Assembly: GCA_002633005.1 (NCBI GenBank)
Contig: NMRA01000596.1
Coordinates: 192,998 to 245,376, forward strand
DNA: 52,379 nt
Direction of reading: 5' to 3'
DNA from: Phoronis australis
Lineage: Eukaryota; Animalia; Phoronida
Program-made: the position numbers and the translations under genes
The notes under the pieces: generated by a model
Database searches by the model: none
What the model was told of the DNA's origin: nothing
The model's input: only the letters and a program-made list of their open reading frames with translations
Part shown: positions 1,555-46,925 of the stretch, piece after piece
Layout of the letters: every line of letters starts with the position of its first letter
Position numbering within the stretch: the stretch's first letter is position 1

Positions 1555-1627
1555 GATGTTATGCATGTTTTCTACAACGATGAAAAGCCTGACAATGAAT
1601 GGACTGTGACGTTTGGCCATTCAAAAG
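1555..1627 (+). CDS. DNASE2: DNase II family nuclease, internal coding exon with first HxK motif (earlier exons lie upstream of the window)
   Basis: Acceptor tgcctag| at 1553-1554 and donor g|gtaggt at 1628. Translates DVMHVFYNDEKPDNEWTVTFGHSKG, matching the DNase II YND..P...GHTKG motif. Not in the ORF track. Confidence 0.9.
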
Positions 1628-2049
1628 GTAGGTGGATATGGTAGTGTGGTTCCACAATACAAAATAGAAGTGATGTAAATAAAACCACTCGGGGGCCATA
1701 ACGTGTATAATTACCCTCTCATGCAGAACGGGCAACTGATGAAGGTGGAAAATTAAAAATTATGGGAATTATGGTACACTAGTAAAGTTGGATCGTCCGT
1801 AGAACATATGTGCTGGTTACTTGTTTATGTTTGTTGACTCCTTGAGATTTAAATTGACTAAAAAATCTGCTGGCTCATTTATATTTCGTGGTGTATACTT
1901 CAGAAATGACATATTTTGATTGTCTATTATCTCCAAAATAAAGGCGTTTGGGGAATTGGGCACTACAATGACATACAATTCTTCATTACTTTGTAACTGG
2001 TGTTTGCATAGTTCCAAAATGTAAGTTCCTAAAATTGACTTGCTGATAA

Positions 2050-2099
2050 TAGCAGCAGCAGCATCAGCAGTAGTAGTAGTAGTAGTAGTAGTAGTAGTC
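2050..2099 (+). repeat. Compound (AGC)n/(AGT)n microsatellite
   Basis: Directly visible agcagcagca...gtagtagtag run. Confidence 0.95.
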
Positions 2100-2418
2100 G
2101 GTGAGCATTAACAATGAAACAATTAGTCAAGCTTCAATTTTATTGATTCTCACTAATACTGTTGAGACCCTGCAAAGCGTGGTAAAGTATATTGCCGATT
2201 CTTCAATAGGCCCAAGGGTCTATGTTTGTATTTTTTCTACGTATCGGCCCATAAGATCCGTACATTTGCTTCAGAGTGCTGGTCCGACAGTCTGCCTAGT
2301 GATCGGTTAGTCTGTTAACACTGATAGATTATTTTATTTTCAACCCTTTAGCTCTGTTTACGCGATTGTAGTCTGAACTTGCTCATGTCTATGAAGTCTT
2401 CAATTCTTTTGTCAACAG

Positions 2419-2574
2419 GTGACGTCTGCTTCGACAAGAAATCTGGATTCTGGTTGGTACATAGTCTTCCACGGTTCCCGCCATTCGGGCAGTACAGTTA
2501 CCCCCCATCAGGCAAAGTATACGGGCAGACGTTTCTGTGCATGAGTTTATCATACGATCAGCTTGATGAGATAG
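2419..2574 (+). CDS. DNASE2: DNase II exon (GFWLVHSLPRFPP...YGQTFLC), ending at a GC donor
   Basis: Acceptor tcaacag| at 2417-2418, phase 1 continuing from the previous exon. GFWLVHSxPxFPP and GQxFLC are DNase II signatures. Ends ATA G|GCAAGT. Confidence 0.92.
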
Positions 2575-2744
2575 GCAAGTGGTGTTCAGTTAGTCTCATG
2601 TCTTCAGTCTAAAGCCCTGTTGTTGAGAGGTACAGTGTACAAGTAGAACCATTGATGTGGTGCATTGTGAATGCGTGAAAATTGTCAAAATGTGACTTCC
2701 CCTTGTCGGGAAAGGGTCTCTGATTCTACTAGTGTGTGCCATTG

Positions 2745-3138
2745 TATACCCACGTGATCAAGGTTTCATTGTTTCATACTTTCTTTGTTGCGTTAATCCA
2801 GATCGACACAGCAGGGTGGCTCAGATACTTTAAACCTAGTTTTACTAAACCGGCTCCATGCGCGCACCCAGCCTCCAGTTTGGGAGGGCTCGAACTTCTC
2901 ACCAAGTGGACCTTTTGCTAACAAAAAAGCTGGAGGACTAAAAAAACCGGGTACCACCTTCAGTACTGTAAACTGCGCGTCTGCGCCTTTTTAGTGGACT
3001 TTTGTCTCGTTTTCTCGGACTTTTTGTTTTCTGAGGCAGACCTTTTTGCCCACTTCGCCAAATGGGGGGGGGGGCTCATTCGAGACCAGGTTTTAGTCTT
3101 AAGTCTGGTTTTGGTAAACCACATTTATGAAATCGGCT
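2745..3138 (-). mobile_element. Fragment of the Harbinger-like family at 15950-16918
   Basis: Ends AAACCACATTTATGAAATCGG. The reverse complement aligns to 15950-16350 but lacks the nested MITE. Confidence 0.65.
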
Positions 3139-3314
3139 TGAAGTGTTTACGCCTGCCAAAGCTGATCGTGCCCGACCCTGGTGAGCAAATCTCGGATTAC
3201 TCATCTCAGGAGGAAAACGTGGCATTGAAATGAAGAATGGTTTCATGTGTTTGGTACAATGGACCCGGTTGGGTGGTCTGAACATGTCTGGTGCCATGTT
3301 TATGAGAACACAGG

Positions 3315-3461
3315 CAGTGGCGGATTTAGGGTGTGGGGGTCCAAGGGGGCCATGCCCCCGGCCTAAAACTCTCAGAATCCATTTGGCAGTTAGTTCGGGG
3401 GTGCGAATGTCTGACTGGAAAATATTTGCTAAATACTGTGCCCTGCCNTGGATCCGCCTCT
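3315..3461 (+). mobile_element. MITE with CAGTGGCGGAT...GGATCCGCC ends (hAT-like); related ends at 4553-4648, 28268-28315, 30510-30526, 36376-36672, 39150-39341, 41765-41819
   Basis: Recurrent terminal motif followed by G-rich and C-rich subterminal tracts; no clear TSD identified. Confidence 0.6.
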
Positions 3462-3753
3462 TACCTGTGCTCTTTCAATATGTGAAATAGGCAGGAAGAG
3501 TTCACCTTATCAATTTTGTGATGCATGATTTACGTTTTTGCACAGTGGCTGGAGAAGGTTCAACTTTCCCTTTACCTAATTTTATGACTATTGCTCAATT
3601 CAGTACTGAGATTTTCTTGCAAAATTGAATGGAACATTTTCTGGGCAGTTGGTATATAGTTCCCCTGATTCGTAATTTCATTCTGACGTATCAGGAACGG
3701 TTACCATTCATTGATTGGTTCATTGGAGAAAAGTTCTTCTGCTGCCATTACAG

Positions 3754-3954
3754 GAAGACAAATGCTGTACTCTTATCCATGGGTTTACGACTATAACTTC
3801 CCGTCTGCATTCAAGTCGGACAATCCAAACATGGCTGCCGTCCTGGAGCAGAAGAAGCACGTGCCTTCGCCTCCGTGGAATGACACTGCTGAGTTCATCA
3901 CGCTCAAAGGCCAGACATTTATCAGCTTGGCTAAGTTCAACACATTCGGAGCAG
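3754..3954 (+). CDS. DNASE2: DNase II exon (GRQMLYSYPWVY...FISLAKFNTFGA)
   Basis: Acceptor ttacag| at 3752-3753 and donor g|gtttgt at 3955. Resembles mammalian GKQLTYTYPWVY...FQSFAK; phases are compatible on both sides. Confidence 0.92.
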
Positions 3955-4339
3955 GTTTGTATTGTGTTTGCTATAGAGTTAGGACTTTTTAGCTAAAATT
4001 GAGTATATATATCAAGAAAACCATCATTGCATGGATTACAAAAGGTCTTCATAGCTGCATAGTTCTAACACGGAATACATGTAAATAAAGAAGTGCAACA
4101 CAGAGATGGGGAAAGCTTTATCTTCTAAAACGTTTTGGAATCGAAGCAGGTTTGTGTTGTGTGTTGTATGGAGTTAGCAAAGGAGTCAGGTCGGTTTGGC
4201 TAAACTTGAGTGCATATCAGGGAAACCGTCAGTCGACTGTAAAGGTTCCATAAGCGCTGTGAAACAGTCCTAACAGTGCAGAAATAAAACGGTACCACAG
4301 AGACGTGGCGAAAGTTTTAGGTTCAAAAACGTTTTGAAA
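3946..4339 (+). repeat. Diverged ~195-bp tandem duplication including the DNase II splice donor
   Basis: tcggagcaggtttgt...aaaacgttttggaa (3946-4140) versus tcgaagcaggtttgt...aaaacgttttgaaa (4141-4339). Confidence 0.75.
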
Positions 4340-4919
4340 CAACGTGATAGTCCCACAAAAGCACGCACATTTGACTTGCCGAAAAATATCTCATATGTAA
4401 ATGATGATGGACGAAAATAAACACGTTCTCTCACCCAGGTGCTTGTTTTATATTGGAATTAAGACCATTTTGGGCTCTATGTTCTATCAACACCAAACTT
4501 TGAGACTTATTCCAGTTACCGGTTTAAAGGCGAATTCTATTCCTTCCTGGACCTCTGGCGGATAAAGAGGGGGCCAAGGGGGCCGAACGTCTGACGGGCA
4601 AAATCCTGTTTAATACTCTGCCCCCCCCCCNACTGGATTCGCCCATGTTGACCAAATAGAAGTAATTTGTCGGATTTAGGAAGAACTGAAAGCTGGTTAA
4701 ATATTGCTCAAAACGAGGCTCAGACGCTAAATGACTAGCCGAGCATGTCAAAGTATTCTGTTGTGTGGTAATATGTATGTAAAATCCTCATCTCCCGCAG
4801 CTCAACATTCTGAGTTATATTATTTATTCTTATTTTTTATGTCATGTTGCAGAACTCGTATTATTTGTCGTGTTTGTTTTAACTTCACATTGAAGACATT
4901 TGTACATGTATGTTATTAA

Positions 4920-6015
4920 GAGTTCCCACCATGTATTTTCTCTCTTTTTAAGTTTTCAGTTAGTAATATGAAATAAATACCACAAATTCTAATAAACACT
5001 TTTTAAGCCAAATAGTCTAGATTTTTTTAATTTTGAAAAACATTTAGTTATTTCCAAATTTCCCGCCAAATGATGTTATGGGTGGAAGACGTTGGTCACT
5101 TGACAATCAAATGTAATATCGGAACGCAGCAGAGGACGATATTCAGCGAGAACTGGACAACTATTAATCAGAGAGGAGAACAGATACGGGCAGCACCGTC
5201 AACTACTTGAAAAATTAGACAATGAGTTCGATTTTCCACTCAGAGAATTTTCGTCGGAATCGAGGCAGTATGAACTCGTGCCACTTGCACACGAAATGCC
5301 ACAGACATAGCTGAACAGCAACCAAATGAAAGAGGAAGTGGCCAATAATCACAAAATAGTCACTTGATATCACTGAAAAGGGGCCACAGCAAACCTATGT
5401 CACTCGAATTCACTATTGACATGACGGAATGAGCACGGTGTAACCACAATGCCCAAGCCTACGTGTCTAGCACCCGATCTGGGCCGAGGTCGAGAGCCTG
5501 GCATCACTTACACTAGGGTGGAAGCCGTTTGTTCGTTATTTATAAAATTTGCAAATACACTTACAAGGTGACGAGTCCTTAATCGAAACACCGCTTTTGT
5601 GTTTGATCGAAACACGATTCGTTGACTGAATATGCCAAACAAGATGTGGCTCCTGACCGAGTCACATGTTCCACACCGACATGCCACATTGTTGTACGAC
5701 ATACAAAACGATGCAATTTCTGTGCAACTTTCACGTATTTAGGAAAGTTGAACACAGAAACGTTCTCCATCAAGTTCCTATTACTATAGCCTTCACAAGC
5801 GCTCCTTTTCATATCTGAAAAAGGCGACTTTCTGCGGACGTTTTTTACAATCCTTCAGTATTGCACTGGTAAAATCAACAACGGCCGAGACGGTCTTAAA
5901 CTAATTACGTACAACCCAGCAAAAAATTATTTATTTAAAATTTTCGGCTATTAAATCTCCTGAGGTGTATTAATGAAAGTATTTTTGAGACACAGGGTCA
6001 TGGTGGGAACTCACT
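4920..6015 (-). mobile_element. Non-autonomous Kolobok-like DNA transposon with a THAP relic
   Basis: 14-bp perfect TIR GAGTTCCCACCATG (4920-4933) / CATGGTGGGAACTC (5999-6012), with TTAA at left and TTAC at right. Minus-strand THAP-like remnant ACEGYSN...SVFNFPK...HRFV (5579-5812). Confidence 0.65.
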
Positions 6016-6069
6016 TTACATTGTGGACTTCCGTTCCGTGGATTACAGTAAATTTTAAAGCTTTTTTGC

Positions 6070-6870
6070 ACATGGCTGTATTTCTGTAACACTTCGCAGG
6101 ATCCTTAGTAAATTTAGCAAGTACATTTATAAGAATTTGACAATGAACGACGACAACATTCGAACGGATCTGACTACCGGTGTGGCACCTACTGGCATTT
6201 TAGTATTTTACCATTACCTCTATATCTTCAAAGGTCCTTGATGGATTTTCATAAAATTCGGAATATAGGCATTTATTGAATAGCTGACACTATTCTTTTG
6301 TTTTCGGATTGAATCCAGGTATTTTGCACCACCTAATGGTCATTTTTGCTGTTTTCGATTCTGTCCCTCTATCAACCAAACCATTCTTAGAATGATCATG
6401 AAAATTGGCATGCGTGTTCGTAGTGTGAAGAGGATGGTTGACGATGATTTTCCGACGATACTGACTGCTGTGGCGCCTCCTGGAGGCAGTTTTGTTTCTC
6501 TTTGCGCTTATAGCTCTATTTGCTAAACCTACCTGTACTGCAGGATATTTATTAAATTTAGCAAGTGTATTTATATGAAGTTGACAACGGACGAGGATGA
6601 CTTTCAGATGAATCCGGCACACGCTGTGCCCTCTAGTGGCAATTTCGTTTGTTTCTGTTTTCCTTTGCTTCTCTGGAGTTCCTTGACAGATTTTTACGAA
6701 ATTTGGTATAGAGCTTTCTATTAAAGACGCCGTGGCATGTTCCTGTTTTCGGATAGATTCGATGTATTTTGCAGCATTTAGTGGCCATTTTATGATGCAA
6801 ATATACACTCCCATAAGCACATCGTTAGCGATGCGTTCGTGAGCGCATTTCAACGCTCCGCGTTGCTCTT
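6070..6870 (+). mobile_element. Helentron/HINE-like non-autonomous element, 5' part not evident
   Basis: Internal diverged repeats containing cctctagtggc; 3' hairpin CAACGCTCCGCGTTG followed by CTCTT, same as the end at 48219-48240. Confidence 0.7.
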
Positions 6871-7423
6871 ATTTCAATTGGTTGCCGGGATTGTTTGAGA
6901 TTATGGTTTTGTACTTGCCGGCTTCGGTCGTGTATCAGTTGAACATCTGCTAACCTGTCAAAAAACGCGACCTTTGAGTTATTGAAAGGTTCAATAAACT
7001 GTTCATGTTTGTCACTACAGCATCAAAACTCACCAATGAGTTATGAGCGACGATAACCTAATTGTTGACATTGGGCTGCTAAATGCGCTGTTTATGTGTA
7101 CGGAAATCAAGTCAACGAGGCTCGGTTACTATACACAATGGTTCACTGTGGCGCCTCCTGGAGGCAGTTTGACTTTCAGATGAATCCTCTAGAAATTGTG
7201 TTAAGAGATAGCAATGGTTACGACGCGTCATTTTCAAAAAATCTGGAAATGGAATTGTTTGAAATGAACGGAAACGGTATTGAACTTGATTTGTTTTGGC
7301 TTGTACTTTAGGTGTTCTTGTTATTAGGGACTGCATGGCTAAGGCGTCAAATTTGTGTTATGGTCTTGGAAATCTCTGTGGGTTCTTTTCTCCCGCATCT
7401 TAACCTTTACGTCTATCTTGTAG

Positions 7424-7533
7424 ACATCTACAGTGAATTTGTGGCCCCCTCTCTGCAGACCGATCTTCAAACAGAAACATGGCAGAACGACAACGGAAGC
7501 CTCAAACCTTACTGTGCGTGTAAGGGGTTTAAG
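7424..7533 (+). CDS. DNASE2: DNase II exon (DIYSEFVAPSLQTDLQTETWQ...CKGFK)
   Basis: Acceptor cttgtag| at 7422-7423 and donor aag|gtacgc at 7534. DxY..xAxxL...ETW pattern of DNase II. Confidence 0.9.
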
Positions 7534-7627
7534 GTACGCAAAGTTACTGCGCAGTACTACTATAGCAGTTCTTCTTTTGCTGAAATGAGATATAATCGAC
7601 GAGTCTGTTGCATAAAAAGCAGCTTAA

Positions 7628-10151: not shown

Positions 10152-10277
10152 GTAGAGAACATTCTCAACCTGTCCTTTCCGAAGAAGATATCATTCCCTA
10201 ACACATTCGATCATTCCAAATGGGCAGTGTCCAGTGACGGGAAAGACTGGACATGCATTGCAGATATTAACAGAGAG
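10152..10277 (+). CDS. DNASE2: DNase II exon with second catalytic HxK motif (DHSKWAVS...WTCIADINRE)
   Basis: Acceptor tttttag| at 10150-10151 and donor gag|gtttgt at 10278. DHSKW and WxCxxDxNR are diagnostic. Not in the ORF track. Confidence 0.93.
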
Positions 10278-10529
10278 GTTTGTGGCATAGATAGAATGAA
10301 CTAATGCAATGCAATTTAAAATCACTTAAAACATTTCAGTGATTGATGACTGCCAGTTGTATAGTGTTGCTCTTTTGTTCAATTTTAGGGTTCTTGGCCC
10401 TGTTTCCCGGTATCTACATTCACAGTCCCTACGTTGTCCCGACCCTTTAATTCCCCCTCCACCTATGTTTTCCCAGGCCCTATCAATATTTGCTATCGGA
10501 AGTCAATTTCATTATCACTTCATCATTTA

Positions 10530-11470: not shown

Positions 11471-11479
11471 TCAAGCCGA

Positions 11480-14131: not shown

Positions 14132-14233
14132 TACCGGCAGTTCAAGAGAGCCGGCCTTGCCGTGTGCTTTGAGATCCCCAGTGTCCATAAAGCCTTCGCA
14201 AGTCTTGTTGCAGACGTGGAGCAATGCCCATGA
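14132..14233 (+). CDS. DNASE2: DNase II terminal coding exon (YRQFKRAGLAVCFEIPSVHKAFASLVADVEQCP*)
   Basis: Acceptor ctttttag| at 14130-14131, phase 0, TGA at 14231-14233. Aligns with the DNase II C-terminus (R-GGG-xxC...KAF..LV...C). The six exons total 768 nt, i.e. 255 aa plus stop, in frame. Confidence 0.88.
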   Translation, partial: YRQFKRAGLAVCFEIPSVHKAFASLVADVEQCP

Positions 14234-14594: not shown

Positions 14595-14635
14595 GCACAT
14601 GGATTGATCCGCTAGTAGATTAGTCTGTTATGCTG

Positions 14636-15860: not shown

Positions 15861-15949
15861 ACTTGAAAATTATGACTGCTAATCGCCACCTGCAATAAAA
15901 AGTTGTGTAAATAATCCCAAGGACATAGAGAAAGCTGAAACTCAAACAG

Positions 15950-16918: not shown

Positions 16919-16919
16919 A

Positions 16920-22822: not shown

Positions 22823-25438
22823 TTACTTTCCAGCTTCAATGACTTTAGCATTTGTTAACTGTGACATAAAATTCGAGGCTGTGCAGGTATAATTACCTTC
22901 GTCAAGTTCGTCCACGGGAATAATCGAAACTCCCACCGTTTTGGCTTCAGTAACACTCGGTTGTGAGGAACAATTCATATCGTTTCCTTTAGGGTCTTTG
23001 ATTACTATCCTTGGAGCTGGATCTCCGTAAGACGTGCACTGGATTAGCACCTCCGTGACGTTATGTATAACTTCCAGAACTGGTTGACTGGGCTTACGAC
23101 AGACAAAATTGCGGGATAAGTACGACTCAACGGTAGGGAAAGTTTTAAAGGGGGAATCGCATGTAGGGATGTCATATATACGTCTTTCATTTCTATAATA
23201 ATTATAGGCCCACATCTGTAACGGAGCGAATAAGCAGTTGCAGTGAAGTGGATTGCTCGATACAAAAATTGTTTGAAGGTGCTTTTCTCTGCTAACTAAC
23301 CTTCGCAGTATATCCAGTGGTAAAACATTTATACTGTTATTACGAACGGAGAGGTGTCGCAAACTGTTCAAATTTTTCATGGCCCCTTCCTCAATATCCT
23401 TTATGCCGCAACTGTCCATTTCGAGCCATTTCATCGACACAAGAGAATCAAACATATGCTGACTTACTGTTCGAATTCTGTTCCCAGAAAGACAAAGATT
23501 CAACAAAAAAGGCAAGTTGCCAAAGGCATCATCGTCTATGTGGTCAATTTGGCAATATGCCATATTCAATATACGAATATTCGGCAATCCTGACAGGGTA
23601 TTGTTTGTAACGGAACCTAGGTTATTAGCGCTTAAGTCTAAGTACCTTAACGCGATCATTTTGGCTGTCGTCCACTTTCCAAGGTTGTTATTCTCTATTC
23701 TAAGTACCTTGATGTTGCTGGGAAGAGCGTTCGGACTAATATGCACTATCCTGTTTCCTATCAGAAAGAGATCTTTAAGTAACGTCATTTTCCCAAAGAC
23801 ATTGTCTCTAAGTGACACAATGTTGTTATGCGACAAAGATAACTTTATTAGAGATTCCAGTCCTTCAAGCATATAGCCGTGTATGTCTTTTAATTTATTA
23901 CTGGAGAGAATAAGGGTTCTAAGACCACGAAACGATTTGAAGGGTTTGTCACTCAGGTCAGATATGTTACACAAAGACAATTCAAGTGTATCGATATCCC
24001 GAAAATTCCCAACGAACGTTTGTGAAACTTTAAATTGTTCGAAATCTCCTTTCAGTCTCAGTATTTTGATATTCGTGAAATGTGACACGTTAATTGTTAA
24101 GTTCACATTAGTTACTTCCAAATGGACCTCCTCACAGTTAATGGGGGTAAAAATGTCCATCTCACCGACTTCATTGCCGTCCACTGCTAAGAGTTTAAGT
24201 CTCTTTGGACCAACGAACTCTTTAGACCTTATCGTGGACAATTTATTTCCAATCAACGACAGATAATTGAGACTGCTCAAGTCTTCAAAAGTTCCACTTT
24301 CTAATGACAGTATCCCGTTGAAGCTTAGAAGCAGGGTATGCAGCTTTTTTAGACCCGCAAACATTCCGCGCTTTAAGATAGTAATTGCGTTATTTTTTAG
24401 AAATAGATATAGCAAGTCTTTCATATGAGAAAACGCCTTCTTTTCAATTGTCGCTATTCTGTTGCCTGTCAGGCTAAGTGAATATAATGACTTCAGACCA
24501 ATGAACATAGATTTCCTCACCTCTGGGATCCAATTTTCAGACAAAGCAAGTTTTCTAGCAGACAAATGAGACCTAAACGCTCCCCTTTCAAGCTCCGATA
24601 TTCTGTTGAGTGACAGGTCAACGTAGACTGTTTGATTGGAAAAAACGTACGATTCTTCAACTACTTGTAAATGGTTTTGCTTCAAATCCAAGTATAGCAA
24701 CGCAGGGAGCACCAGACCATGAACCTCACTTATGGAGTTGTTTCTCAATACTAACGTCTTCAAAATTTCCAGTCCGTCAAAAATATTCTCGTGCACTACC
24801 ATTAAGTGATTCTCCTCGAGGTTAAGACGCGTCAACCTGTTCAACCTGCTAAACGTACCATTTGCTATCCAAGAAATTTCGTTATTTCCAATCTGCAAAT
24901 CTTCAAGACTTAACAATCCATCACCAAGAGAATTGCGGTCCAGCGAAGTAATAGCGTTGGACGTTAAATGTAGAACTCTTATCAAAGGCATTTCTGCAAA
25001 TATGCCTTTTGACAGAAACGATAAGCGATTATTTGTGAGATCGAGGATTTCTAAATTTCTCAAGCCAAACAAAGTTTTGCGTGTTAGTACACGAATTCTG
25101 TTATCACTCAAATCCAGCGATTTCAATTCAATCAATGCAGAAAAAAGTCCGTCAGGGAAATCACTCAATAGATTCTTTGCAAGACACAGTTGCTTCACTT
25201 GTAGAAAATGGGTGAAAGCGTCACTCCGAATCTGGCGAATGCCACAGTTCCACAAGTCCACAGTTGCAGCGTTCGCTAAGTTCAATGTTTTCTCTCTGTT
25301 CAACACAGTTTCTCTCCGCTGCAGGCAGTTAATGGAATAGACAGTCCACCATCTTGCACTGAGCGCAACCAATAGGAGCACACGTCCTCTCGTCACAGCC
25401 ATCGTAGAGAAAATGATCTGAGTGCGTACAAGCGTCAT
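22823..25438 (-). CDS. Extracellular leucine-rich-repeat protein: signal peptide, about 27-29 LRRs, LRRCT and one C-terminal Ig-like domain; single coding exon
   Basis: Uninterrupted 871-aa ORF with repeated LxxLxLxxNxI units, NPLHCNC...W...C LRRCT and an Ig domain (IQCTSYGDPAP...DEGNYTCTASN). Hydrophobic N-terminus RGRVLLLVALSA. The second ATG at 25402 (acgATGG) has the better Kozak context. A minus-strand acceptor ttttttcag at 25464-25465 implies a 5'UTR intron. Confidence 0.92.
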   Translation of the reverse strand: MTLVRTQIIFSTMAVTRGRVLLLVALSARWWTVYSINCLQRRETVLNREKTLNLANAATVDLWNCGIRQIRSDAFTHFLQVKQLCLAKNLLSDFPDGLFSALIELKSLDLSDNRIRVLTRKTLFGLRNLEILDLTNNRLSFLSKGIFAEMPLIRVLHLTSNAITSLDRNSLGDGLLSLEDLQIGNNEISWIANGTFSRLNRLTRLNLEENHLMVVHENIFDGLEILKTLVLRNNSISEVHGLVLPALLYLDLKQNHLQVVEESYVFSNQTVYVDLSLNRISELERGAFRSHLSARKLALSENWIPEVRKSMFIGLKSLYSLSLTGNRIATIEKKAFSHMKDLLYLFLKNNAITILKRGMFAGLKKLHTLLLSFNGILSLESGTFEDLSSLNYLSLIGNKLSTIRSKEFVGPKRLKLLAVDGNEVGEMDIFTPINCEEVHLEVTNVNLTINVSHFTNIKILRLKGDFEQFKVSQTFVGNFRDIDTLELSLCNISDLSDKPFKSFRGLRTLILSSNKLKDIHGYMLEGLESLIKLSLSHNNIVSLRDNVFGKMTLLKDLFLIGNRIVHISPNALPSNIKVLRIENNNLGKWTTAKMIALRYLDLSANNLGSVTNNTLSGLPNIRILNMAYCQIDHIDDDAFGNLPFLLNLCLSGNRIRTVSQHMFDSLVSMKWLEMDSCGIKDIEEGAMKNLNSLRHLSVRNNSINVLPLDILRRLVSREKHLQTIFVSSNPLHCNCLFAPLQMWAYNYYRNERRIYDIPTCDSPFKTFPTVESYLSRNFVCRKPSQPVLEVIHNVTEVLIQCTSYGDPAPRIVIKDPKGNDMNCSSQPSVTEAKTVGVSIIPVDELDEGNYTCTASNFMSQLTNAKVIEAGK

Positions 25439-29884: not shown

Positions 29885-29889
29885 TCGAC

Positions 29890-35887: not shown

Positions 35888-38456
35888 TTTCTTGTTTGTC
35901 TTAACACACACTACATGCACCAGTATCGTTATTTTGTTCTTTGTAACGAAATTACTTTGATTTCCATGTAATGCTCTAAACTGCACCCATGATTCAATCT
36001 AATGCGAGCTCTACACAGCATATTTCAAACTTACAGAATAGATGTGATTTGTTGGCTCATTTTTATCTATCAGAAAGCAACTTTGTCTGCAATTTTCGGA
36101 TAGATAGTCGTAGTAATTTGCTGATTACAATTTTCGTAAATGCGATTACATCCTGAGTTTTTACTTTGAAGAATATAGTTGTACCAAACGGCTCTTCGTT
36201 TTTAAAATTGAGAAATATGAACCCGTATGCAAAATAACAATTGTTTAGGAATTGAAATTATTTGTTTTTTCCTTATGCTTATAGCATCCGCCAGCAAGAG
36301 TTCATAATGCCGATGATGGGCTTCCTAACTTATATGACTCTTGTGCAATTCGCCGGGTTGAAAAACGGCAGAGTTCAGTGGCGGATTTAGTTCAGTGGGA
36401 GGGGGGTCAAGGGGGCAATGCCCCCCCTAAAATTCTACCAGATACCATTTGGGAGTTCGGGTGCGCGCAAACCGGGGGGTAAATAAACAACGCATAGGCC
36501 CTGAGCAAACAGAACATGAACGGCCGTTTACCTTTTTTTTCTAGTCAACAGATCCGCAACCCCACTCATTCGAGGCCCCTGCGTCCCTACACTTTAGGCT
36601 GGGCGTGCGCATCTGTCGAAATTCTGGTTATTCCAGTGCCCTGCCCCCCACTCAAAATCCTGGATCCGCCCCAAGTTGCGAAAAGTTTTGTTGACAGTAA
36701 AGAAATTCCCGGCGGCAACTCTCGAAACCCAACCACATACTGTGAATGCTGTACATATTAAGGAAAATCCAGGACCGTGTGAACTTGTATTTTACACTTT
36801 TACTGTGTAATTTGGTGATGATTCGACGCCCAGCACCAAAGCTATTATAGGCCTAATTACAATTAAGTACCGTACATTTATCTCTGACAGCGACTCACAC
36901 ATGAGTGCCGTCAGGTTAGCCGGGAACAAAGTTGTGTGACGAGGCCGCTTGGTAAATGAAACAATTTTCAAACGAAAATGAAAACATCAAAAAAACTGAC
37001 AAAAAAATCTCAATGTCGAGCTTTATCGGCAAGGGCAAACCTTCCGTAGCCAGTGACCTTTGTTTGGACATATCTCACTTGACCTATTTTTAACTGTGTT
37101 AACGTCTTCTTAATTTGACCTATTTTTAACTGTGTCATAACACAAGTGGTGGACGTGAGCTGAGAAAGGATCCCGTCAACACTGGTCAAGGATAAGAACA
37201 ACCGTGACGGGCTTAAACGTTTACTGACATCACAGCACAGTTCAGTGAGATAGACTGGGTAATGTGAACAACTGCTTTTCGATTTTTCCATCATAGCCTA
37301 CCGTTTAAGTTTTTAGTCAGACTATCTGCTGTTAACCGATGGCCAGGCGATGGATCTTCGTTAGCCTCTGTTTAGCGTGCTGTGCGGGGTAAACCCTGGA
37401 TAAGGTCCAGCGACCTGGTTCAAATCATTACATAATCGGATGGCGAAGGAGTCTCTTGTTTCCAGTCATATGTATTTCGCTGCTGACAGGGTTGTCTCTT
37501 GTTGAAGTTATAAAAATGGCTCAATCTCATGCCCGTTGTTGGATTTTAGGGTAGGACTTAAGTCCAACAATTAATAATTACCTCGTAATCAAAGGACCCT
37601 GGACAGGTGCTTTGACCTTGGCCCAGTTTTTAAGCCCAGCTAAGAAATAGTTCGACACCAAAACACTGCTTTTCAACACAAAATAATAGCACTGCATGAA
37701 TCTGTTGCACAGGGCAGTTCTTTCAGCGCTGTCAGTGAGTAAGAAGGATGTCACTTTTTAAATGAACCACATATATAAGTCAAATTTGAGTGCACAGAGT
37801 TGCAGGACCCGGATTGGAAGTCTTCTGAATTTTTATTAATGTGTTAATTTATTGAAATAATAATAAATCCAAGGCATCATGAAATATTACTTGAAGATGG
37901 CAGTGAACATGTTATTTCAAGCGTTCATTGTGGCTAGTTAATTCTATCATGCTTTGATAGAAATGAAAGAACAATTCGGAGAACGGTGATTTCGGACATT
38001 AAGTACTCCACAGTTCAAATTAAAATAAATTGCCTTCAGTCGAAATTATATATTTGGTTTCTATGTAGTGAAAGACTTTCAAGGTAGTTGAGGGTTACAT
38101 CTACTGAAATAATCTCAGTACAGTAAAGTTGACATGTAGCCTAAGCCAATTAAAATAAGTAACTTAAAATTCATAGTACTTTAGAACATTTAAGACATTA
38201 CAAATGTTATCCAACAACACGACAAATTTACATGATATGAATGTGGACATGCCTAACTATTACCATGGCGACCAGGTGTTTCTTTACACTGGAATTTGGC
38301 AAGCATGATTTAAAAAAATAAGAAGTTGTAAGGATCTAGGATTGGAGACTGGAAACTTCACAGTCCAACACTATATCCTATTACTCTAAATAAGAGTCTT
38401 TACATTTTGCTGCCTTGATAACTTGAATTGAGAAACGAACAAGTTACAGCGCATGT

Positions 38457-40317
38457 AATTGACCTATCGCAAGCTCTGCCCCTATGCGAAAAGTCACATG
38501 ATACCCGACATTCGAACAAGATGACAGAGGCAAATACACTGTCGCTAAACGACGTTCTTGGTGGAATCGTTGAGTGTTTTTGTACTGTTTGAAAACGCGT
38601 CGACAGAGACAAGAGGCGATGCCTTTCAACAGTAAATCGTATGTTCATAATATGGGAATATGTAAAGGTGACGATGAAAAAATAAGTGCTCGAGGAGCCA
38701 GCGAAAATCCGAAGAACCCCTCGGCCTCGGGGCCACCTTCACCTGACAAATGACAAGGCCACTGATACGATATGTTCATGTAAAGCTGGGTATGTACCTT
38801 AAAGTCGAATTATCTGTATGATTCCATAGATTTCATGATCTTTCGAATAAAATCAGTGAAGATTCATCGATATTTTTATTCTGTCATCTGCTAAATTTCG
38901 CCAAATGAAAAGTAGGTCACAACTGGTGGGACTCCTGGAGTAAAGTAGGTCATAGATTACAGACAACACATGCACTATAGTGTCTGACTAGGTCGACTCG
39001 ATAGCACTGTTTGCGCTTTTCTAATCTTGTAACGAAATATTTTGATCAAAAAATTCAGGTTCATAGCTCAGGTACATACTCATCTCGTCCAAGGCAAACA
39101 GCTCCTGTAGATCTAGGGCTGTGTCTAAGTAAAATTAATGTCTGGAATTCAGTGGCGGATCTAGGATACCACAGGGGGGCCAACATATGTTGCCTCGTGG
39201 AATTGGGCAAAGTGCGATTGTATGTGCACAGGCGGCCCGAAAGTTGCAGGGGCCAGGGATGTAGACCGTTGGACCTTCTGTTCAGAAAATCTATCGGTGG
39301 ACTTAAAAAAACAGCCAGGAACACGATTCTGCCGCGATCTGNNNNNNNNNNNNNNNNNNNNNNNNNNNNNNNNNNNNNNNNNNNNNNNNNNNNNNNNNNN
39401 NNNNNNNNNNNNNNNNNNNNNNNNNNNNNNNNNNNNNNNNNNNNNNNNNNNNNNNNNNNNNNNNNNNNNNNNNNNNNNNNNNNNNNNNNNNNNNNNNNNN
39501 NNNNNNNNNNNNNNNNNNNNNNNNNNNNNNNNNNNNNNNNNNNNNNNNNNNNNNNNNNNNNNNNNNNNNNNNNNNNNNNNNNNNNNNNNNNNNNNNNNNN
39601 NNNNNNNNNNNNNNNNNNNNNNNNNNNNNNNNNNNNNNNNNNNNNNNNNNNNNNNNNNNNNNNNNNNNNNNNNNNNNNNNNNNNNNNNNNNNNNNNNNNN
39701 NNNNNNNNNNNNNNNNNNNNNNNNNNNNNNNNNNNNNNNNNNNNNNNNNNNNNNNNNNNNNNNNNNNNNNNNNNNNNNNNNNNNNNNNNNNNNNNNNNNN
39801 NNNNNNNNNNNNNNNNNNNNNNNNNNNNNNNNNNNNNNNNNNNNNNNNNNNNNNNNNNNNNNNNNNNNNNNNNNNNNNNNNNNNNNNNNNNNNNNNNNNN
39901 NNNNNNNNNNNNNNNNNNNNNNNNNNNNNNNNNNNNNNNNNNNNNNNNNNNNNNNNNNNNNNNNNNNNNNNNNNNNNNNNNNNNNNNNNNNNNNNNNNNN
40001 NNNNNNNNNNNNNNNNNNNNNNNNNNNNNNNNNNNNNNNNTTCAACATCATTTGTCGGCTTAGGACATGTCAAAAATGACGGGATATTATTCTGGAGCAG
40101 CATAACGGCTGTCGGCGCTACACACGCCATATCAACACCGTTTCCCCATTCTTAGCGGACAATTTCTTGAGCTATAGACTAAAGTAAATTTTACTCGACT
40201 GTGTGTGGTTTGTCGGGTAAAATGGCGGCTTGGAAACGCAGACGAAGGTGTGCCAAGAATGCTGCATTCTGATTGGTCAATTAAGCCGTCCGTCATAATC
40301 CTGGCGATAGGTCAATT
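38457..40317 (-). mobile_element. Putative TIR DNA transposon (ISL2EU/Harbinger-like) with a THAP start, spanning the gap
   Basis: 14-bp perfect TIR AATTGACCTATCGC (38457-38470) / GCGATAGGTCAATT (40304-40317). Minus strand MGKRC*YGVCSADSRY...CPKP runs from about 40149 into the gap. Confidence 0.5.
39342..40040. other. Assembly gap (699 N)
   Basis: Run of N. Confidence 1.
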
Positions 40318-40503
40318 GAAAGAACGATTTATACGTAAAATTTAGAAAAGCATGTTGTGACACCAAAACCTTGAAGCTCAATTGACTTGCAAAGAAAAAA
40401 CGATTTCAAAACTATTTCAACTATTTTTAAGCTGAGTGTAAGGTCAACTGAGTGGGATATTCACACTTAGAATATTCCTTATATTTTTGAACAAAATCAT
40501 AAA

Positions 40504-41512
40504 CATTGTGCAACGTTGCCTTTTTATATCAGCTTTCATCAAAATTTATCAAAGTTAAATCTTCACCAAGTTCAAAATAGCCGATTGAACATGCACTTCA
40601 GTTCAGCGTACGTCGCCATGTTTTCGGTGCCGAAGGTTCAACGGGAATTGTGTGCACTTTTATCACTCAATAAGTAACATCTGCGTGGCTGATATCAAGT
40701 GAAAACTGTTGAATTGCTCAGAATAGTAGGTATAGATATTTTTCACTAAAATTTCATCGTAAATTATTGGTGAAAATAATTTATACACGGTTTTAAACTC
40801 GTAACTTATGTTGTTTCCGACTCAATAAAAAAATGACCCAAATTTTGCCACAAAATTGCAATAACTTTGCACTGCTTAACCCGATTTTGATAATTTTTTA
40901 ATTTTTACTGACTGGGATGCATTATCTTTCCGATTACATGGACTAGGCTAAAATTCAATTTCTTTTTTCCTCTAAAAATCCAGCATTTTCTTTGATTCCT
41001 GAAGTATTATCCAAGAAAAAAAAGACAAAAAAAAAATCATGGAGAACGCATCAAACGGGGAAAAACTGCAAGAACCACAGTCTCGAACCCACGACCTGGG
41101 GCTTAGAGCGCGCGTGCTTTACCACTACACCACCACAATTTAACTACTAATTGGTACTAAGAGACCTACTTGTTTATGGTCCACAGCATTTGCGCGTGAA
41201 ACCAACTGCTTTTTGTTATGCTTATTACACGTTTTATATTTTGTGCAATCGGTTCTTAACAAATTTGTTGTATTTAAAATAGTCTTCAAATGCCCAAAAG
41301 ACCAAATCCGTTTTTCATGTTGGCAGTAATGACTGTATTGCTTTGAAAATCGTCTTAAGTTAAGGTTTGACAGAGAGAGAATTATGAGTTTCTGAGTGAT
41401 TCACTAAGACTTCGATTAAAATTCACATCTTACCAGCAGCTTCTGTTTTTTCATCATCACTCAGGTTCCATTTTCTTTAAAAAGTTAAGTAAATTTCCTT
41501 CATTGCACAGTG
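40504..41512 (-). mobile_element. Non-autonomous CAC-ended (Transib/CMC-like) element containing a tRNA-like segment
   Basis: Ends CATTGTGCAA (40504) / TTGCACAGTG (41512). Homology with 27664-28220 stops at this end. No matching TSD seen. Confidence 0.55.
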
Positions 41513-43012
41513 GAGCAGACGACGGAAACGGAGTCGTAGTTCGCAGCGCCACTGTCGGTCGCCTGGGATATCGCGGGAGAGCCTATACTTAGCCATAGTT
41601 CCGTTACGAATTTGACACTTGAAATTGGATCTGAGCCCCTCCCCCCCTCCCCAAACACTAAAACTGCACACATTTATATCTTGTTTCATCCGTATAATTT
41701 TAATTACCGAAGTTAATTAAAAAAATCAACATTTCCCTACGCTCTTGCTGTTGTATTTTTTTTTGCGGTAGCCAAGGGGGGGGGTGGGCCACCTGCCCCC
41801 CCCCCTAAATCCGCCTATGATACTAGTAGTTTATAAATCCTAAATCGAGGGCAGTATTTATAAAAAGCAATCAAATATAGAACTCTATTTGTGCAGCTTT
41901 TCTCAAGTTATTAACAGAGAACTTATCATTTGAGTTAGCATCATTGTCTGGATCTTGTTCTTGATGTCTTATTAAACTGGAGACTCTAGTGTCTACTATA
42001 GTTGGAAGTGACCCGCAAGATAATATTTCTTTGTTGTGGAGGCGACCAGGCAAGGGGGAGGATGGGTGTTCCAACTACTTGGTTGATAAGCTTTAAATTT
42101 TCTTATGGTAATGCGAGTGAGTGCAGTAAATTTTATGAGTGAGTATTTTAGCCACTGTATCACAGAATGTGGGGGCATCTTACACCCAGTGTGGCAGTGA
42201 GCAATTCATTAAATGCTGCTTCCGGGAGTCCTGTTGCCCCCCCCCCCACATGTAGTCTCCCTGTAAGTAGTTTGTCCAAAGAGAGCATTATGTTCGCAAG
42301 GCAGAAATAACAAACATGAAGGTCGCTCTTCGATTGCGTCTCGCGATGAAAGTGCAAGTGTGAACTGAGCGTGTAGCTGATTATTACTGCTTCTTTGACT
42401 CTACACTTTCTGTTCACTCGGGCACTTGTGCTAGATTATTTGATTGTGTGCAATCTTATCTCCAACCTTATTTAACTTCTCAATAATCATTCATTTTGGG
42501 GTTCTCAATTATCTGGAAGTTGAAACACATAGAAAACTTCTTTTGGCTCTTCTATTTCCGAGGTACACAAATATGACGTCACAATGACATCACTGTTGTC
42601 AACAATATCATTAGCATGTGGTGGTTGCAGTAAAATTACATAGTTTCATGTATTGTTAATTAAATTTCAATAAGTAAGTTTAATTTTTATCAGTATGACA
42701 ATTTTAAGCAAGACTTTGAAAAGACGCATGTATAGTTTAATCAAAGGTTTGAATTCAAGATAATTTAGACACTCACAGTTCTTTAAATTACTGAATTACT
42801 GACTTTTTCGATCTATGGGATAAGTAGTCATACCAGTTGGGTCACTGTTTGTCCTCATGTTCAGTTAAACCAGGATATTTGTTCCTGGGAAAACTGTCTG
42901 TGTGGACGCAGCATCTACATTTGCCGTGTTTACTCATCAGTCATTTGGGTATTGTTTACTTAATAAAAACATGAACTTGTTTTTTATTTCAGAATAAAGA
43001 ATACTTGCAAAA

Positions 43013-43130
43013 ATGGCGGGTACTTCAGACGACAGATTTGAGTTTGCGAGTAAAGGCTATGGAAAGAACAATGTTAAGCTGCTTCACATTCGACGAGATG
43101 GTCCAATACATCATATCCAAGAGGTTGAAG
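43013..43130 (+). CDS. UOX: Urate oxidase (uricase), first coding exon (MAGTSDDRFEFASKGYGKNNVKLLHIRRDG...EVE)
   Basis: aaaATGG start and YGK motif with the catalytic Lys. Donor g|gtattt at 43131. An acceptor tttcag at 42991-42992 indicates an upstream non-coding exon. Confidence 0.92.
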
Positions 43131-43602
43131 GTATTTTCAATGTTTAGATCGAAGGGTATAATACGATTAACCTTTTCTTAAGGTGCCTACTAATCTTCTG
43201 GTTTACGCTTCTTTAAGGGTGTTTCTAAGCGACAAGTGTGAGATTTCAGCCATTTATTGTGATCCTATTTCAAGGAGAACAGTTGAACTATAGTAGTAAG
43301 AAATCTTCAAAATGCCAGCAGATCAACCGATAAGGGTCCTCTGACAAGTCAACTTGGAGAGCCCTGGTTTTAATTAACTGCAGACTGTGAACTCTCTTGA
43401 AACCCTGAAACCATCTCCGATTTGACTTAGGAGACGAATTGCATAATGATATGGCAGTGGTCTAAATCTAGTTTTTGTGTTTTAATGAAGTTTACGTAAT
43501 AGCCTTTAAAACATACTCTAAAATTATTGATCAGGGTACCTGGCACTGACGAGTATATATAATGCTACGGTTATAATTAATAATATTGTTATTATTTTTC
43601 AG

Positions 43603-43718
43603 TCAGTACTCAGCTTGAGCTGAACTCTACCTATGATTACATTGAAGGAGATAATCGTGACATTGTTGCGACTGACACACAGAAGAATACAGTCTATATC
43701 TTGGCCAAGAAGCATGGG
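43603..43718 (+). CDS. UOX: Uricase exon (DYIEGDNRDIVATDTQKNTVYILAKKHG)
   Basis: Acceptor ttttcag| and donor ggg|gtgagc. GDN..IVxTDTxKNT motif with the catalytic Thr. Confidence 0.95.
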
Positions 43719-44109
43719 GTGAGCGTGTCTGCAGTACACATTTCATCAATACACATGAATTATTGTTGTACTTTAAAAGGATACTGAACCCTGTTATGAT
43801 CTGTTTCCACCAATCCTCGTTCTGTCACCTGCTAATTCATCATTGGCGTCAATCTTCCAAGTTGAAGGTAGGAATCAATCAAAAAACCATACTCCCTATG
43901 TCACAGGTAGGACATTGTGGTCCTTGGTGGGTGGTCTTTTCCTCGCAATTGTGGGTCTCGATAGCTCATTAAGCAGACTTTGAAAGGCGTTTTCAAATTT
44001 TCCTCCAAACTTTTTATAGTTTTTATGGATGACGAAGCATTCTTTTGTTTCTGAGAAGTTGATGGGAAAGTCGTTTTTAGTGTCTGTTGATAGGCCAAAA
44101 CCGGGGTTG

Positions 44110-44410
44110 GTATCTTTTTAAGAAATCCCAGTCTCACCTGTACACAATATCATTCTTAGTCAGGAGCCCACTGACAATCTCATCACTTCACAGACTAAGA
44201 GATCCCGTTCTTGTCAACGCAACATACCATTCTTGTTTTAAGAAGTCACAATCTCACCAATACACAAATGAATATCATTCTTGTTTTTAAGAAGCCACTT
44301 TGCCATCTCAGTACTCAGTATTTTTGATTTAAGATGCCATGATCTCATCAACAGATCACCGAATATCATTCTTGTTCAAGCCAGAATCTCATCAATACAT
44401 TCAAGTTATT
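44110..44410 (+). repeat. Degenerate tandem repeat in a uricase intron
   Basis: Recurrent aatatcattcttg..ttaagaag...aatctca blocks. Confidence 0.6.
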
Positions 44411-45008
44411 GGTCTCCTCGTTATATAGAGAAGCTTTGCCCGCAAATTATGAGTATTCTTGAGTAAGCAACAGTTTATAAATTCGCATTAGCCAAAATAT
44501 GGCAGATAACTATTTGTTCTGGTCTTCGCCCAACTTATTTTGAAACCTGCCACTCAAACCTGGCATCAAGTGGCGTGGAAAAAAGAATTCTGGGCCATTT
44601 CAACTCCAACCACTAGATGGGGCTACGGCTGATGTCTGCTTGCCACCAGACCCCACTAAGAGAAATCATTTATTGAGTCAACATACAGGATGAAGTAGTC
44701 CCTCGTGTGTATTTGCAATTGTCAGATTTTAAATCCACAAAATAGTAAATTATGTGAGGACTTTATATGAGTTACCTTGACTATTACATTCATTTGAAAA
44801 CTGCTGTATACATGGTTAAAAAAGACACAAAAATCATTCTGATTTGGAATGTGGTTATGCTCGAGGGATGCCTGCTTTTCCACAAGTGAAACTTTGGCAC
44901 ATATGTCTTCATACAAACAAAGCAAAAACATTTTTTTTTTTGAAAAAAATGCATCATTTTTGATATTTATGTAACTTACCTAAATTCACGGTTCACTGAT
45001 GCTTTCAG

Positions 45009-45131
45009 GTTAAGACAATTGAGAGGTTTGCGCTTCAGCTAGCAGAGCACTTTCTGATGCGGTATAGCCATGTGATCAGGGTCAAGATCACTGTACAGCT
45101 GTATCCATGGCGGCGGATTACCCAGGAAGAG
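45009..45131 (+). CDS. UOX: Uricase exon (VKTIERFALQLAEHFLMRYSHV...YPWRRITQEE)
   Basis: Acceptor ctttcag| and donor gag|gtggga. ExF...xxHFL..xxHV and PWxR motifs. Confidence 0.92.
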
Positions 45132-46324
45132 GTGGGAGGCTTACGCAAAAATGCCTGTTCTTGCTTTGATTATCGGGCTTTAGACTGTTGAAGCGAGCTC
45201 TAGCGTTAATCTGCACTTATCTCCCGAGATTTTTGAAGACATTGAGAAAACATTTTATGTTTCGGCTGACTGTATATTGTTATTTTGTATTTTTTGTTTT
45301 CTTAGGCAGTATAAGTTTGCTCGAAAATTTACTCAGACTGAGTAGATTACCATGTTTTGGAGACCACTAAAATGTACTTAGCCAAAATTACTCGAAATCT
45401 TATTAAGTAATTTTAAGTATTTCAGAAGGAAAGTGGGACCATCATTAATTCTTGAGTAAAATCTCTACAGCAAGTTTGGGAAAATTACTTGAAAATTGCA
45501 AAACCTTGCATACTCAATGTATCGTGCTATTGTTTTGAAGCCTTAAATTCACAATTCGATGTCTCATTATACTTTGCGTGTGTGTTAATTAGAATATTGC
45601 AATAAGTAGGAATATAAAAAATTTATTTACAAGGTACATGTACATACCGTGCACCTCTTTATTAAAAATTAGCAGACGACAATTCTTTTCACACCTCCTC
45701 TAATGGAAACTTCAAATTTGTTTACTGGGTTGTGGATGCACTTATTGTTGAGCAACTCGAGAACAGTTCTCGAGTCTTGAGTTCATATTGACTGTACTTA
45801 TCAATAAAAGTGGTAGGTGCCATTTTCCTAGTATTTTCAAGTCTGTTTTTTTTTGACATCCATATCCCTATCGGCCAAATTACTCTTAAGAAATTGGTAG
45901 ATGTGTTCTTACTTGGTAAAGCATGACCTCAATGATTTTTGGACAGTTTTGACTTCTGTCAAAGAAGTTCTGTGGTGCCCATTAGCGTCTGTTCTGCTGT
46001 TTTCGCATCCATAGCTGTTAACCCTTAAACCCCTGCCAGATCTTTGTGAAATTTGACAACGGATGACAATATTACTTTTGGACATATTTGACTAGCACCC
46101 AGTTTATTTTTTTTGCGATCTTGGCAGGTTTGTTCCCACTGTGGAAAGCATTTCTGACTTGCTGTGCACCCTCTAGAGGCTATTTTAATTTACTAGCATT
46201 GCTCCCTTTAGTGGGAATATTTGACAGTAATCATCCCTTGTATCTGTGATGCGATGCACACGGTGGCCACATATCAACACTTCGCAATGTTCTTGTGGAC
46301 TGTAATGCTTCTTTATTTTTCTAG

Positions 46325-46403
46325 GATGACAGAGAACACAATCATGCCTTTATATTTTCCCCGGAAGCCATGCGTTACTGTGAGGTTGAGCAGCTGAGGC
46401 ATG
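46325..46403 (+). CDS. UOX: Uricase exon (DDREHNHAFIFSPEAMRYCEVEQLRH)
   Basis: Acceptor ttttctag| and donor g|gtaatg. HxHAFI...CEVEQ motif. Confidence 0.93.
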
Positions 46404-46735
46404 GTAATGTTGTGAATTTGTCTTGTACTCTTGTGCATTATACTGTATTGCTGTGCTGTGCAGTGTGGAGTAGCTAAGACATGGTTAAGGCCAAAGAAAA
46501 TTGCATCTGACTGGCTTTGAAATATTAGCCTCATTGTTTAAAGATAAGACTCCCACGTGCATCATATTTAGCGAAGTTCTTTTTCATTCAAAAGCTACAC
46601 AAAAGGAATTAGACGGCCACCTCCTTTATGGCTTCAATTTGACTTGATGTTGAAGAGCCCTGCTATGGGTGGCGCTGAATATCGTGTAGCAGCACGACTC
46701 ATTTCAATACTGGAAATTGTCCTCTGATGTTGCAG

Positions 46736-46925
46736 GTAAACCTCAGGTTATGTCTGGCCTCAGTGGACTACGTGTACTGAAGACAACACAGTCTGCCTTT
46801 GTGGGTTTCCACCGAGACGAGTACACCACTCTTCCCGATGCCCACGATCGCTGCTTCTCGACGGTGGTCGACGCAAAATGGTGGTACGACAGATTTGATG
46901 ACAGCACGATGTTCTGCCGCAACTG
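46736..46925 (+). CDS. UOX: Uricase exon (LRVLKTTQSAFVGFHRDEYTTLPDAHDRCFST...W); remaining exons beyond the window
   Basis: Acceptor ttgcag| and donor tg|gtatgt. Uricase signature LxVLKTTQSxFxxFxxDxYTTL and the substrate-binding Arg of DR. No downstream SPSVQxTLY exon was found before 52379. Confidence 0.95.

What the first reader, a model, noticed from the sequence alone, without database searches (positions are those of the whole stretch)
1555..46925. DNase II and urate oxidase are neighbours in an invertebrate: possible ancient microsynteny of the mammalian DNASE2B/UOX pair
Seen: spliceable DNase II exons end at 14233 and uricase starts at 43013 (~29 kb apart, same strand), with only one clear gene between them. 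Established: mammalian DNASE2B (DLAD) lies head-to-head with UOX. Inference: the linkage may predate vertebrates, with an inversion in one lineage. It pairs lysosomal DNA breakdown with terminal purine catabolism, which could reflect shared regulation.
Basis: partly seen in the sequence, partly recalled or inferred. Interest (0 to 1): 0.78.

Follow-up and report, generated by a model that had tools for sequence, protein, structure and literature searches.

The report
Flipped DNase II–uricase gene pair
This invertebrate has a transcribed DNA-digesting gene (DNase II) 29 kb from the uric-acid enzyme uricase, a pairing already published as about 700 million years old; the only difference is that both genes point the same way here, likely through a local flip that would have broken their shared promoter.

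Summary
Six DNase II exons (1555-14233) and five uricase exons (43013-46925) lie on the + strand, 28,780 bases apart, with one LRR-Ig gene between them. Four of five DNase II junctions are seen in stranded RNA, and uricase exons are transcribed from the same strand. The headline inference is already in print: Mori et al. 2022 (PMC9208542) report DNase2b head-to-head with Uox in nearly all chordates, an acorn worm and a brachiopod. That fixes the polarity: head-to-head is ancestral and this tandem layout is derived. No second DNase II lies in the window, so a shared bidirectional promoter is excluded in this assembly. The order DNase II then Uox is what flipping the DNase II side gives. The likeliest cause is a real local inversion (0.5); rivals are an inverted duplicate (0.22), an assembly flip at the repeat-flanked gap (0.22) and a chance join (0.04). 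No contig listed bridges the gap. A candidate uricase 5' exon left of the gap (37154-37258) argues against an assembly flip, but its junction was not seen. Orientation changes in ancient gene pairs are common. Species not identified; likely a lophotrochozoan. Low interest.

The parts
1555..1627 (+). DNase II exon with the first HxK motif (HSK); first exon found in the window, earlier exons lie outside it
   Evidence: Pfam DNase_II 71-94, E 0.029; profile of 141 homologues E 1.3e-6; RNA reads at 1569; its downstream junction was not among the rows shown
2419..2574 (+). DNase II exon (GFWLVHS motif), followed by a GC-AG intron 2575-3753
   Evidence: Pfam E 1.7e-19; joint skipping 1179 bases in 25/10/29 reads; donor GCAAGT
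3754..3954 (+). DNase II exon
   Evidence: Pfam E 6.4e-10; joints on both sides
7424..7533 (+). DNase II exon
   Evidence: Pfam E 2.1e-6; joints on both sides
10152..10277 (+). DNase II exon with the second HxK motif (HSK)
   Evidence: Pfam E 1.5e-11; motif; joints on both sides
14132..14233 (+). DNase II last coding exon with stop; a polyadenylation-type hexamer lies at 14589
   Evidence: Pfam E 2.8e-4; joint in 13/17/1 reads; hexamer
22823..25438 (-). Intervening gene: one ORF of 871 aa, leucine-rich repeats plus a C-terminal Ig domain, no clear membrane helix
   Evidence: Pfam LRR_8 E 1e-98, Ig_3 E 6e-7; Atlas LRR-Ig clusters; hydrophobicity scan; not covered by the read calls
37154..37258 (+). 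Candidate non-coding first exon of uricase (inferred; junction not seen)
   Evidence: 6 molecules end at 37154 in X6; the bin has - first mates 4.29/3.56 against + 0.15/0.17; a low-depth DNA contig covers 37116-37732; no ATG, donor GTAATG at 37259
39342..40040 (.). Scaffold gap of 699 N inside a cluster of high-copy repeats (about 38300-42300)
   Evidence: DNA depth 4,300-6,000 in the flanking bins and up to 75,609 nearby in X1, against 5-9 for unique contigs; no listed contig bridges it
42993..43130 (+). Uricase exon with start codon at 43013, preceded by a pyrimidine tract and AG at 42991-42992 (acceptor inferred from sequence)
   Evidence: profile E 6e-11; RNA on - first mates only
43603..43718 (+). 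Uricase exon with the ATDTQKNT motif
   Evidence: Pfam E 2.2e-8; RNA depth 20-24 (X5) and 9-12 (X6)
45009..45131 (+). Uricase exon (donor inferred from sequence and frame)
   Evidence: Pfam E 1e-3; profile E 1e-13
46325..46403 (+). Uricase exon
   Evidence: profile E 1e-7; no Pfam hit alone
46736..46925 (+). Uricase exon with the VLKTTQS motif; later exons are not in the window
   Evidence: Pfam E 3e-17; PDB uricases E 3e-15

Best explanation
A spliced, transcribed DNase II gene and a transcribed uricase gene lie 29 kb apart on one strand; they are likely the published ancestral DNase2b-Uox pair, likely turned from head-to-head to tandem by a local inversion of the DNase II side that would have broken the shared promoter. 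Shown: both genes, strand, order, distance, and no second DNase II in the window. Published: the head-to-head ancestral state. Inferred: orthology, the inversion, and that the genes now run from separate promoters and stay close only because small inversions do not move genes far. One inversion giving the order DNase II then Uox must flip DNase II, with one break between the two 5' ends; the LRR-Ig gene was then either in DNase II's old 3' flank or inserted later.
For: Gene models and RNA. Head-to-head in chordates, Saccoglossus and Lingula. Chance proximity about 1-2.4 in 10,000. A profile of 141 DNase II proteins finds only the six + strand exons; the next hit has E 2. The candidate uricase 5' exon left of the gap has the right strand and about the right depth: 2,450 read-bases seen against 2,310 expected in X5, 2,033 against 1,050 in X6. 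Orientation is kept in all sharing species for only 51.4% of human 5'-5' ancient pairs (PMC3514665).
Against: No contig listed bridges the gap and no long-read run was among the 8 listed; a scaffolding flip gives the same picture. The junction from 37258 to 42993 was not seen, and an A/T-rich box at 42961 allows a start right at the coding exon. The tree does not place the copy: its sister is a rotifer protein at support 0.83 and the next node has 0.51. A freshwater mussel has two DNase II loci 17 locus tags apart and two Lingula proteins are listed by Mori, so paralogs occur. No genome was held to count copies.
Confidence: 0.5

Rival explanations
1. Assembly flip: the true genome is head-to-head like Lingula, and the block left of the gap (or of another repeat) was scaffolded in the wrong orientation.
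For: The gap sits between the genes inside high-copy repeats and no listed contig bridges it. Flipping the left block brings the DNase II 5' side toward Uox, the published ancestral layout.
Against: A + strand RNA signal starting near 37154 in low-copy DNA left of the gap, with a donor site, no ATG and uricase-like depth, fits the missing uricase first exon. If it splices to 42993, the DNA left of the gap is correctly oriented. The junction itself was not seen.
Confidence: 0.22
2. Inverted duplicate: DNase II was copied nearby in the opposite orientation and the head-to-head copy was lost or moved, so this gene is a local paralog. The linkage is still ancestral in origin.
For: Local DNase II paralogs exist in a bivalve. 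RNA samples carry a divergent form of exon 3754-3954, with 7 listed differences of which 5 change residues.
Against: No remnant of another DNase II in the window. All reads of X7 at those positions carry the other form (for example 50 of 50 at 3771), and uricase exon 43603-43718 differs as much (4 in 116 bases, all silent), which fits alleles.
Confidence: 0.22
3. Chance or misjoin: the two genes are unlinked or only accidentally near, for example through a wrong join at the gap.
For: The join is unverified.
Against: A random join would hit the one partner known from other phyla with odds near 1 in 5,000-10,000.
Confidence: 0.04

Closest known systems
DNase2b-Uox head-to-head locus of bilaterians (Mori et al. 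2022, PMC9208542)
   Same: DNase II family gene next to urate oxidase in an invertebrate; two HxK motifs; both genes transcribed.
   Different: Tandem, not divergent; 28.8 kb and an LRR-Ig gene lie between the DNase II stop and the Uox start; no bidirectional promoter is possible in this layout.
Reptilian Uox-Dnase2b locus (Mori et al. 2023; bioRxiv 10.1101/2023.06.02.543418 = PMC10517255)
   Same: The genes stay linked while the shared promoter is lost.
   Different: Reptiles gained a new Uox first exon beyond Dnase2b without rearrangement, and Uox expression moved to skin. Here the DNase II side appears inverted and no expression shift has been tested.
Conserved ancient microsyntenic pairs (Irimia et al. 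2012, PMC3514665)
   Same: An ancient neighbouring pair, 5'-5' in most lineages; a change of orientation in some species is common in that survey.
   Different: The pair is not named in the main text (0 hits for uox and dnase); the supplement could not be read.
Invertebrate DNase II proteins auto-named 'plancitoxin-1-like'
   Same: Best identities 45-49% over shared columns to annelid, bivalve and unnamed proteins; Mori class such invertebrate proteins as DNase2b.
   Different: The name is transferred by annotation pipelines; nothing here indicates a venom role.

Membership tests
DNase II (PF03265) | Pfam DNase_II domain | tested here: met
   6 of 6 exons hit in order, profile 71-326 of 326
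DNase II (PF03265) | Two PLD-type HxK motifs | tested here: met
   HSK in exon 1555-1627 and in exon 10152-10277
DNase II (PF03265) | N-terminal signal peptide for lysosomal targeting | not testable with these tools
   The N-terminal exons are outside the window; no genome held
DNase II (PF03265) | Three conserved cysteine pairs, without the vertebrate fourth pair | tested here: inconclusive
   7 cysteines in the part present; not mapped onto Mori's alignment
Cofactor-independent urate oxidase (PF01014) | Uricase domains with YGK, TD[TS]QKNT and VLKTTQS motifs (motif list recalled) | tested here: met
   Motifs present; Pfam; 25 distinct PDB uricase-family sequences
Cofactor-independent urate oxidase (PF01014) | C-terminal active-site residues and peroxisomal targeting signal | not testable with these tools
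   Profile positions after 227 of 322 are not in the window
DNase2b-Uox conserved locus | Physical linkage of DNase II and Uox | tested here: met
   28,780 bases apart in the assembly; the join at the gap is unverified
DNase2b-Uox conserved locus | Head-to-head orientation with a bidirectional promoter | tested here: not met
   Both transcribed from +; no - strand DNase II piece in the window
DNase2b-Uox conserved locus | Orthology to the Uox-linked DNase II of Lingula, Saccoglossus and chordates | tested here: inconclusive
   Tree of 141 proteins plus this one is unresolved, and none of the named rows is a known Uox-linked copy
DNase2b-Uox conserved locus | Co-ordinated expression | not tested
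   Only two RNA runs of unstated tissue were laid on both genes

The most novel reading that the evidence does not exclude
The inversion is real and shared across a lophotrochozoan (probably molluscan) lineage, yet DNase II and uricase stay close and co-expressed without a bidirectional promoter. Something else, such as a shared digestive-gland enhancer, would then hold the 700-million-year-old pair together, giving a natural test of why lysosomal DNA breakdown and purine disposal are linked.
Probability: 0.12. Interest if true: 0.55.

Novelty: new variant of a known kind. Interest (0 to 1): 0.25.

Why it matters
The main claim, that the DNase II-uricase linkage predates vertebrates, is published. 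This window adds one more invertebrate and a layout in which the shared promoter cannot exist. If the layout is real, it is a second natural case, after reptiles, where the pair stays linked but is uncoupled, and it allows a simple test of whether the bidirectional promoter is what preserves the pair. That interests specialists in purine metabolism and microsynteny but is not surprising, since about half of ancient head-to-head pairs change orientation somewhere (PMC3514665).

Tried and rejected
A hidden head-to-head DNase II upstream of Uox: none by tblastn, motif search or three profiles; the 699-N gap is too short for a gene like the one seen. DNase II N-terminal exons misplaced near the Uox start: best hit E 0.95. 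The 549-base inverted pair 27668-28210 / 40963-41508 as an inversion-breakpoint duplication or a partner gene: rejected, the copy laid is a very high-copy repeat (X1 depth 75,609 against 5-9). Species by exact look-up of the LRR protein: 0 of 4 start variants in the collection. Taxon by DNase II tree: unresolved; 141 of 154 candidates were kept (230-460 aa). The first run used wrong exon boundaries and was discarded (corrected). Synteny in other animals through metagenome contigs: 0 of 80 loci had a uricase hit (best E 0.45); 29 of 80 were 4 kb or longer and the matches were mostly uninterrupted, so this does not test animal synteny. A homologue search with exon 3759-3953 found nothing. TGACCT half-sites near the candidate exon (3 within 68 bases): 31 in the window against 24.9 +/- 5.3 by chance, and two of the three come from a short direct repeat; not support. 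No RNA holder was listed by index; RNA came from raw-read runs with the same species label. tRNA and Rfam scans were empty; the sigma-70 scan does not apply to an animal. Earlier findings: none near this place, by sequence, or holding all the words.
Full report
Observation. The window is animal DNA, about 40% G+C, with a 699-N gap at 39342-40040 and five single Ns. No whole genome is held for it. Six DNase II exons on the + strand (1555-1627, 2419-2574, 3754-3954, 7424-7533, 10152-10277, 14132-14233) keep one frame to a stop and match Pfam DNase_II in order over positions 71-326 of 326. Both HxK motifs are present. Stranded RNA from three runs with the same species label shows 4 of the 5 junctions, with first mates on the - strand only, which in most stranded libraries means + strand RNA. 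The fifth junction was not among the 15 joints listed; 327 were hidden. One intron is GC-AG (2575-3753). The first ~95 residues are not in the window.

Uricase has five exons on + from the ATG at 43013 to 46925; its last third is not in the window. The repeat-poor uricase bins have RNA from - first mates only, depth 20-24 in X5 and 9-12 in X6 at the second exon. Its junctions were not among the 15 joints listed (343 hidden), so those splice sites rest on sequence and frame. The stop-to-start distance is 28,780 bases. Between the genes lie one clear gene, an 871-aa LRR-Ig ORF on -, and transposon remains. For assumed genome sizes of 0.4-1 Gb, two given single-copy genes would be this close by chance about 1-2.4 times in 10,000.

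What is known. Mori et al. 2022 (PMC9208542; I saw abstract and discussion passages, sections 10 and 11 in full, parts 3-4 of the supplementary table and searches of the supplementary PDF, but no figure) state that DNase2b has been in synteny with Uox for 700 million years. They report it head-to-head with a bidirectional promoter in nearly all chordates, Saccoglossus kowalevskii and Lingula anatina. Mori et al. 2023 (passages of the bioRxiv text; supplement passages of PMC10517255) repeat this and show that reptiles lost the shared promoter without rearrangement. The B. floridae accessions for Uox (XP_035684771-3) and DNase2b (XP_035684834) are close in number, which is weakly consistent. Five searches on the pair turned up no paper describing a tandem invertebrate case, judged from listings and from the passages read; Fig. 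5a of the 2022 paper, which includes Octopus, could not be seen and may show one. The original mammalian head-to-head report (Shiokawa and Tanuma) is recalled, not read.

What differs here. Both genes run the same way. A profile from 141 DNase II proteins finds only the six + strand exons, with the next hit at E 2, so no head-to-head copy lies upstream of Uox. A bidirectional promoter is therefore excluded in this assembly. From the ancestral divergent layout, flipping the DNase II side gives the order seen (DNase II then Uox); flipping Uox would give the reverse order. This is inference from geometry. Irimia et al. 2012 (PMC3514665; passages; supplement unavailable) found orientation kept in all sharing species for only 51.4% of human 5'-5' ancient pairs, so such changes are ordinary. 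PMC13508932 (one passage and a supplement search) does not mention the pair. PMC5138847 (passages) was not relevant.

Is the layout real? The same geometry results if the block left of the gap was scaffolded backwards. The gap is flanked by repeats at depth 4,300-6,000 in X1, and up to 75,609 nearby, against 5-9 for unique contigs; none of the 16 contig pieces listed bridges it, and none of the 8 runs listed is marked as long-read. One lead argues against a flip. The uricase coding exon is preceded by a pyrimidine tract and AG (42991-42992), the bin upstream has almost no RNA, and the exon's implied depth (about 21 and 12) equals that of the next exon, as for an internal exon. Left of the gap, in low-copy DNA, a + strand RNA signal starts near 37154 (6 molecules in X6), followed by 105 bases without ATG and a GTAATG donor. 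The bin holds 2,450 read-bases in X5 against 2,310 expected for such an exon, and 2,033 against 1,050 in X6; some of the signal comes from a repeat near 37680. If this is the uricase first exon, the transcript spans the gap. The junction was not seen, and an A/T-rich box at 42961 leaves a start at the coding exon possible, so I give this about even odds.

Which copy and which animal? The tree (141 of 154 candidates, 248 columns) puts the protein in a group of 26 at support 0.945. Its 12 named members are all invertebrates: annelids, bivalves, echinoderms, a nemertean, a bryozoan, a rotifer, a centipede and a sponge. The set was gathered with an annelid query, and inner nodes are weak. Best identities are 45-49%, to annelid, bivalve and unnamed proteins. 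Unchecked notes on other pieces of this genome call it a likely mollusc; my data fit a lophotrochozoan but do not prove it. Paralogy is possible: Sinanodonta has two DNase II loci 17 locus tags apart. The variant form of exon 3754-3954 in the RNA runs is more likely allelic, since X7 carries it in all reads at those positions and uricase differs by a similar 4 in 116 bases. A scan of metagenome contigs gave 80 DNase II loci with no uricase nearby, but they are mostly short and uninterrupted and do not test animal synteny.

How it works. By family knowledge, DNase II is an acid lysosomal endonuclease whose two HxK motifs form one active site, and uricase oxidises urate at the start of uricolysis; the products of the first feed purine catabolism, and in mammals the shared promoter gives joint liver expression. 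Here the two genes most likely have separate promoters and stay close because a small inversion did not move them apart. Co-expression was not tested; only two runs cover both genes.

Verdict. Real genes and very probably a real ancestral linkage (about 0.95), already published. The tandem layout is a modest variant: real inversion 0.5, inverted duplicate 0.22, assembly flip 0.22, chance join 0.04. Interest 0.25.

Noticed in passing
window 2575-3753 (+): GC-AG intron in DNase II, supported by 25/10/29 junction reads.
   Followed up: yes
window 22823-25438 (-): Single-ORF LRR-Ig gene of 871 aa with no clear membrane helix; a possible GT donor at 22826 just before the stop could lead to a further exon.
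   Followed up: partly
window 27668-28210 and 40963-41508: Inverted pair of a 549-base element, 86% alike; about 10,000-fold DNA depth and RNA on both strands at the copy laid. An unclassified very high-copy repeat.
   Followed up: partly
window 14635-16259, third end copy at 21515-21641: Element with ~137-base inverted ends (91% alike) and decayed internal frames that look by eye like a Harbinger-type transposon with a Myb/SANT piece (label recalled; no Pfam hit).
   Followed up: no
window 17981-21262 (+): Frameshifted LINE remains; RVT_1 E 2e-18 at 19158-19718.
   Followed up: partly
window 7759-8091 (+): THAP domain fragment (E 3e-13) inside a high-copy repeat in a DNase II intron.
   Followed up: partly
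window 10451-11460 and 50721-50916: 3' piece of a LINE-like element ending in an AAAT-rich tail inside a DNase II intron, with a related tail near the window's end (label by eye, no Pfam hit).
   Followed up: no
window 16923-17516 (+): Decayed frames resembling an LTR-retrotransposon reverse transcriptase by eye; no Pfam hit.
   Followed up: no
window 3754-3954 and 43603-43718: RNA samples differ from the window by about 3.5% in coding exons of both genes (7 listed in 201 bases; 4 in 116), pointing to a very polymorphic species.
   Followed up: partly
window 49259-49838: Tandem 291-base duplication, 97% alike, with a single N at the junction (49547); possibly an assembly artefact.
   Followed up: no
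window 37054-37121 (+): Three TGACCT nuclear-receptor-type half-sites just upstream of the candidate uricase first exon; not enriched window-wide.
   Followed up: partly
window 51671-51711: Short interstitial TTAGG array of about eight units.
   Followed up: no
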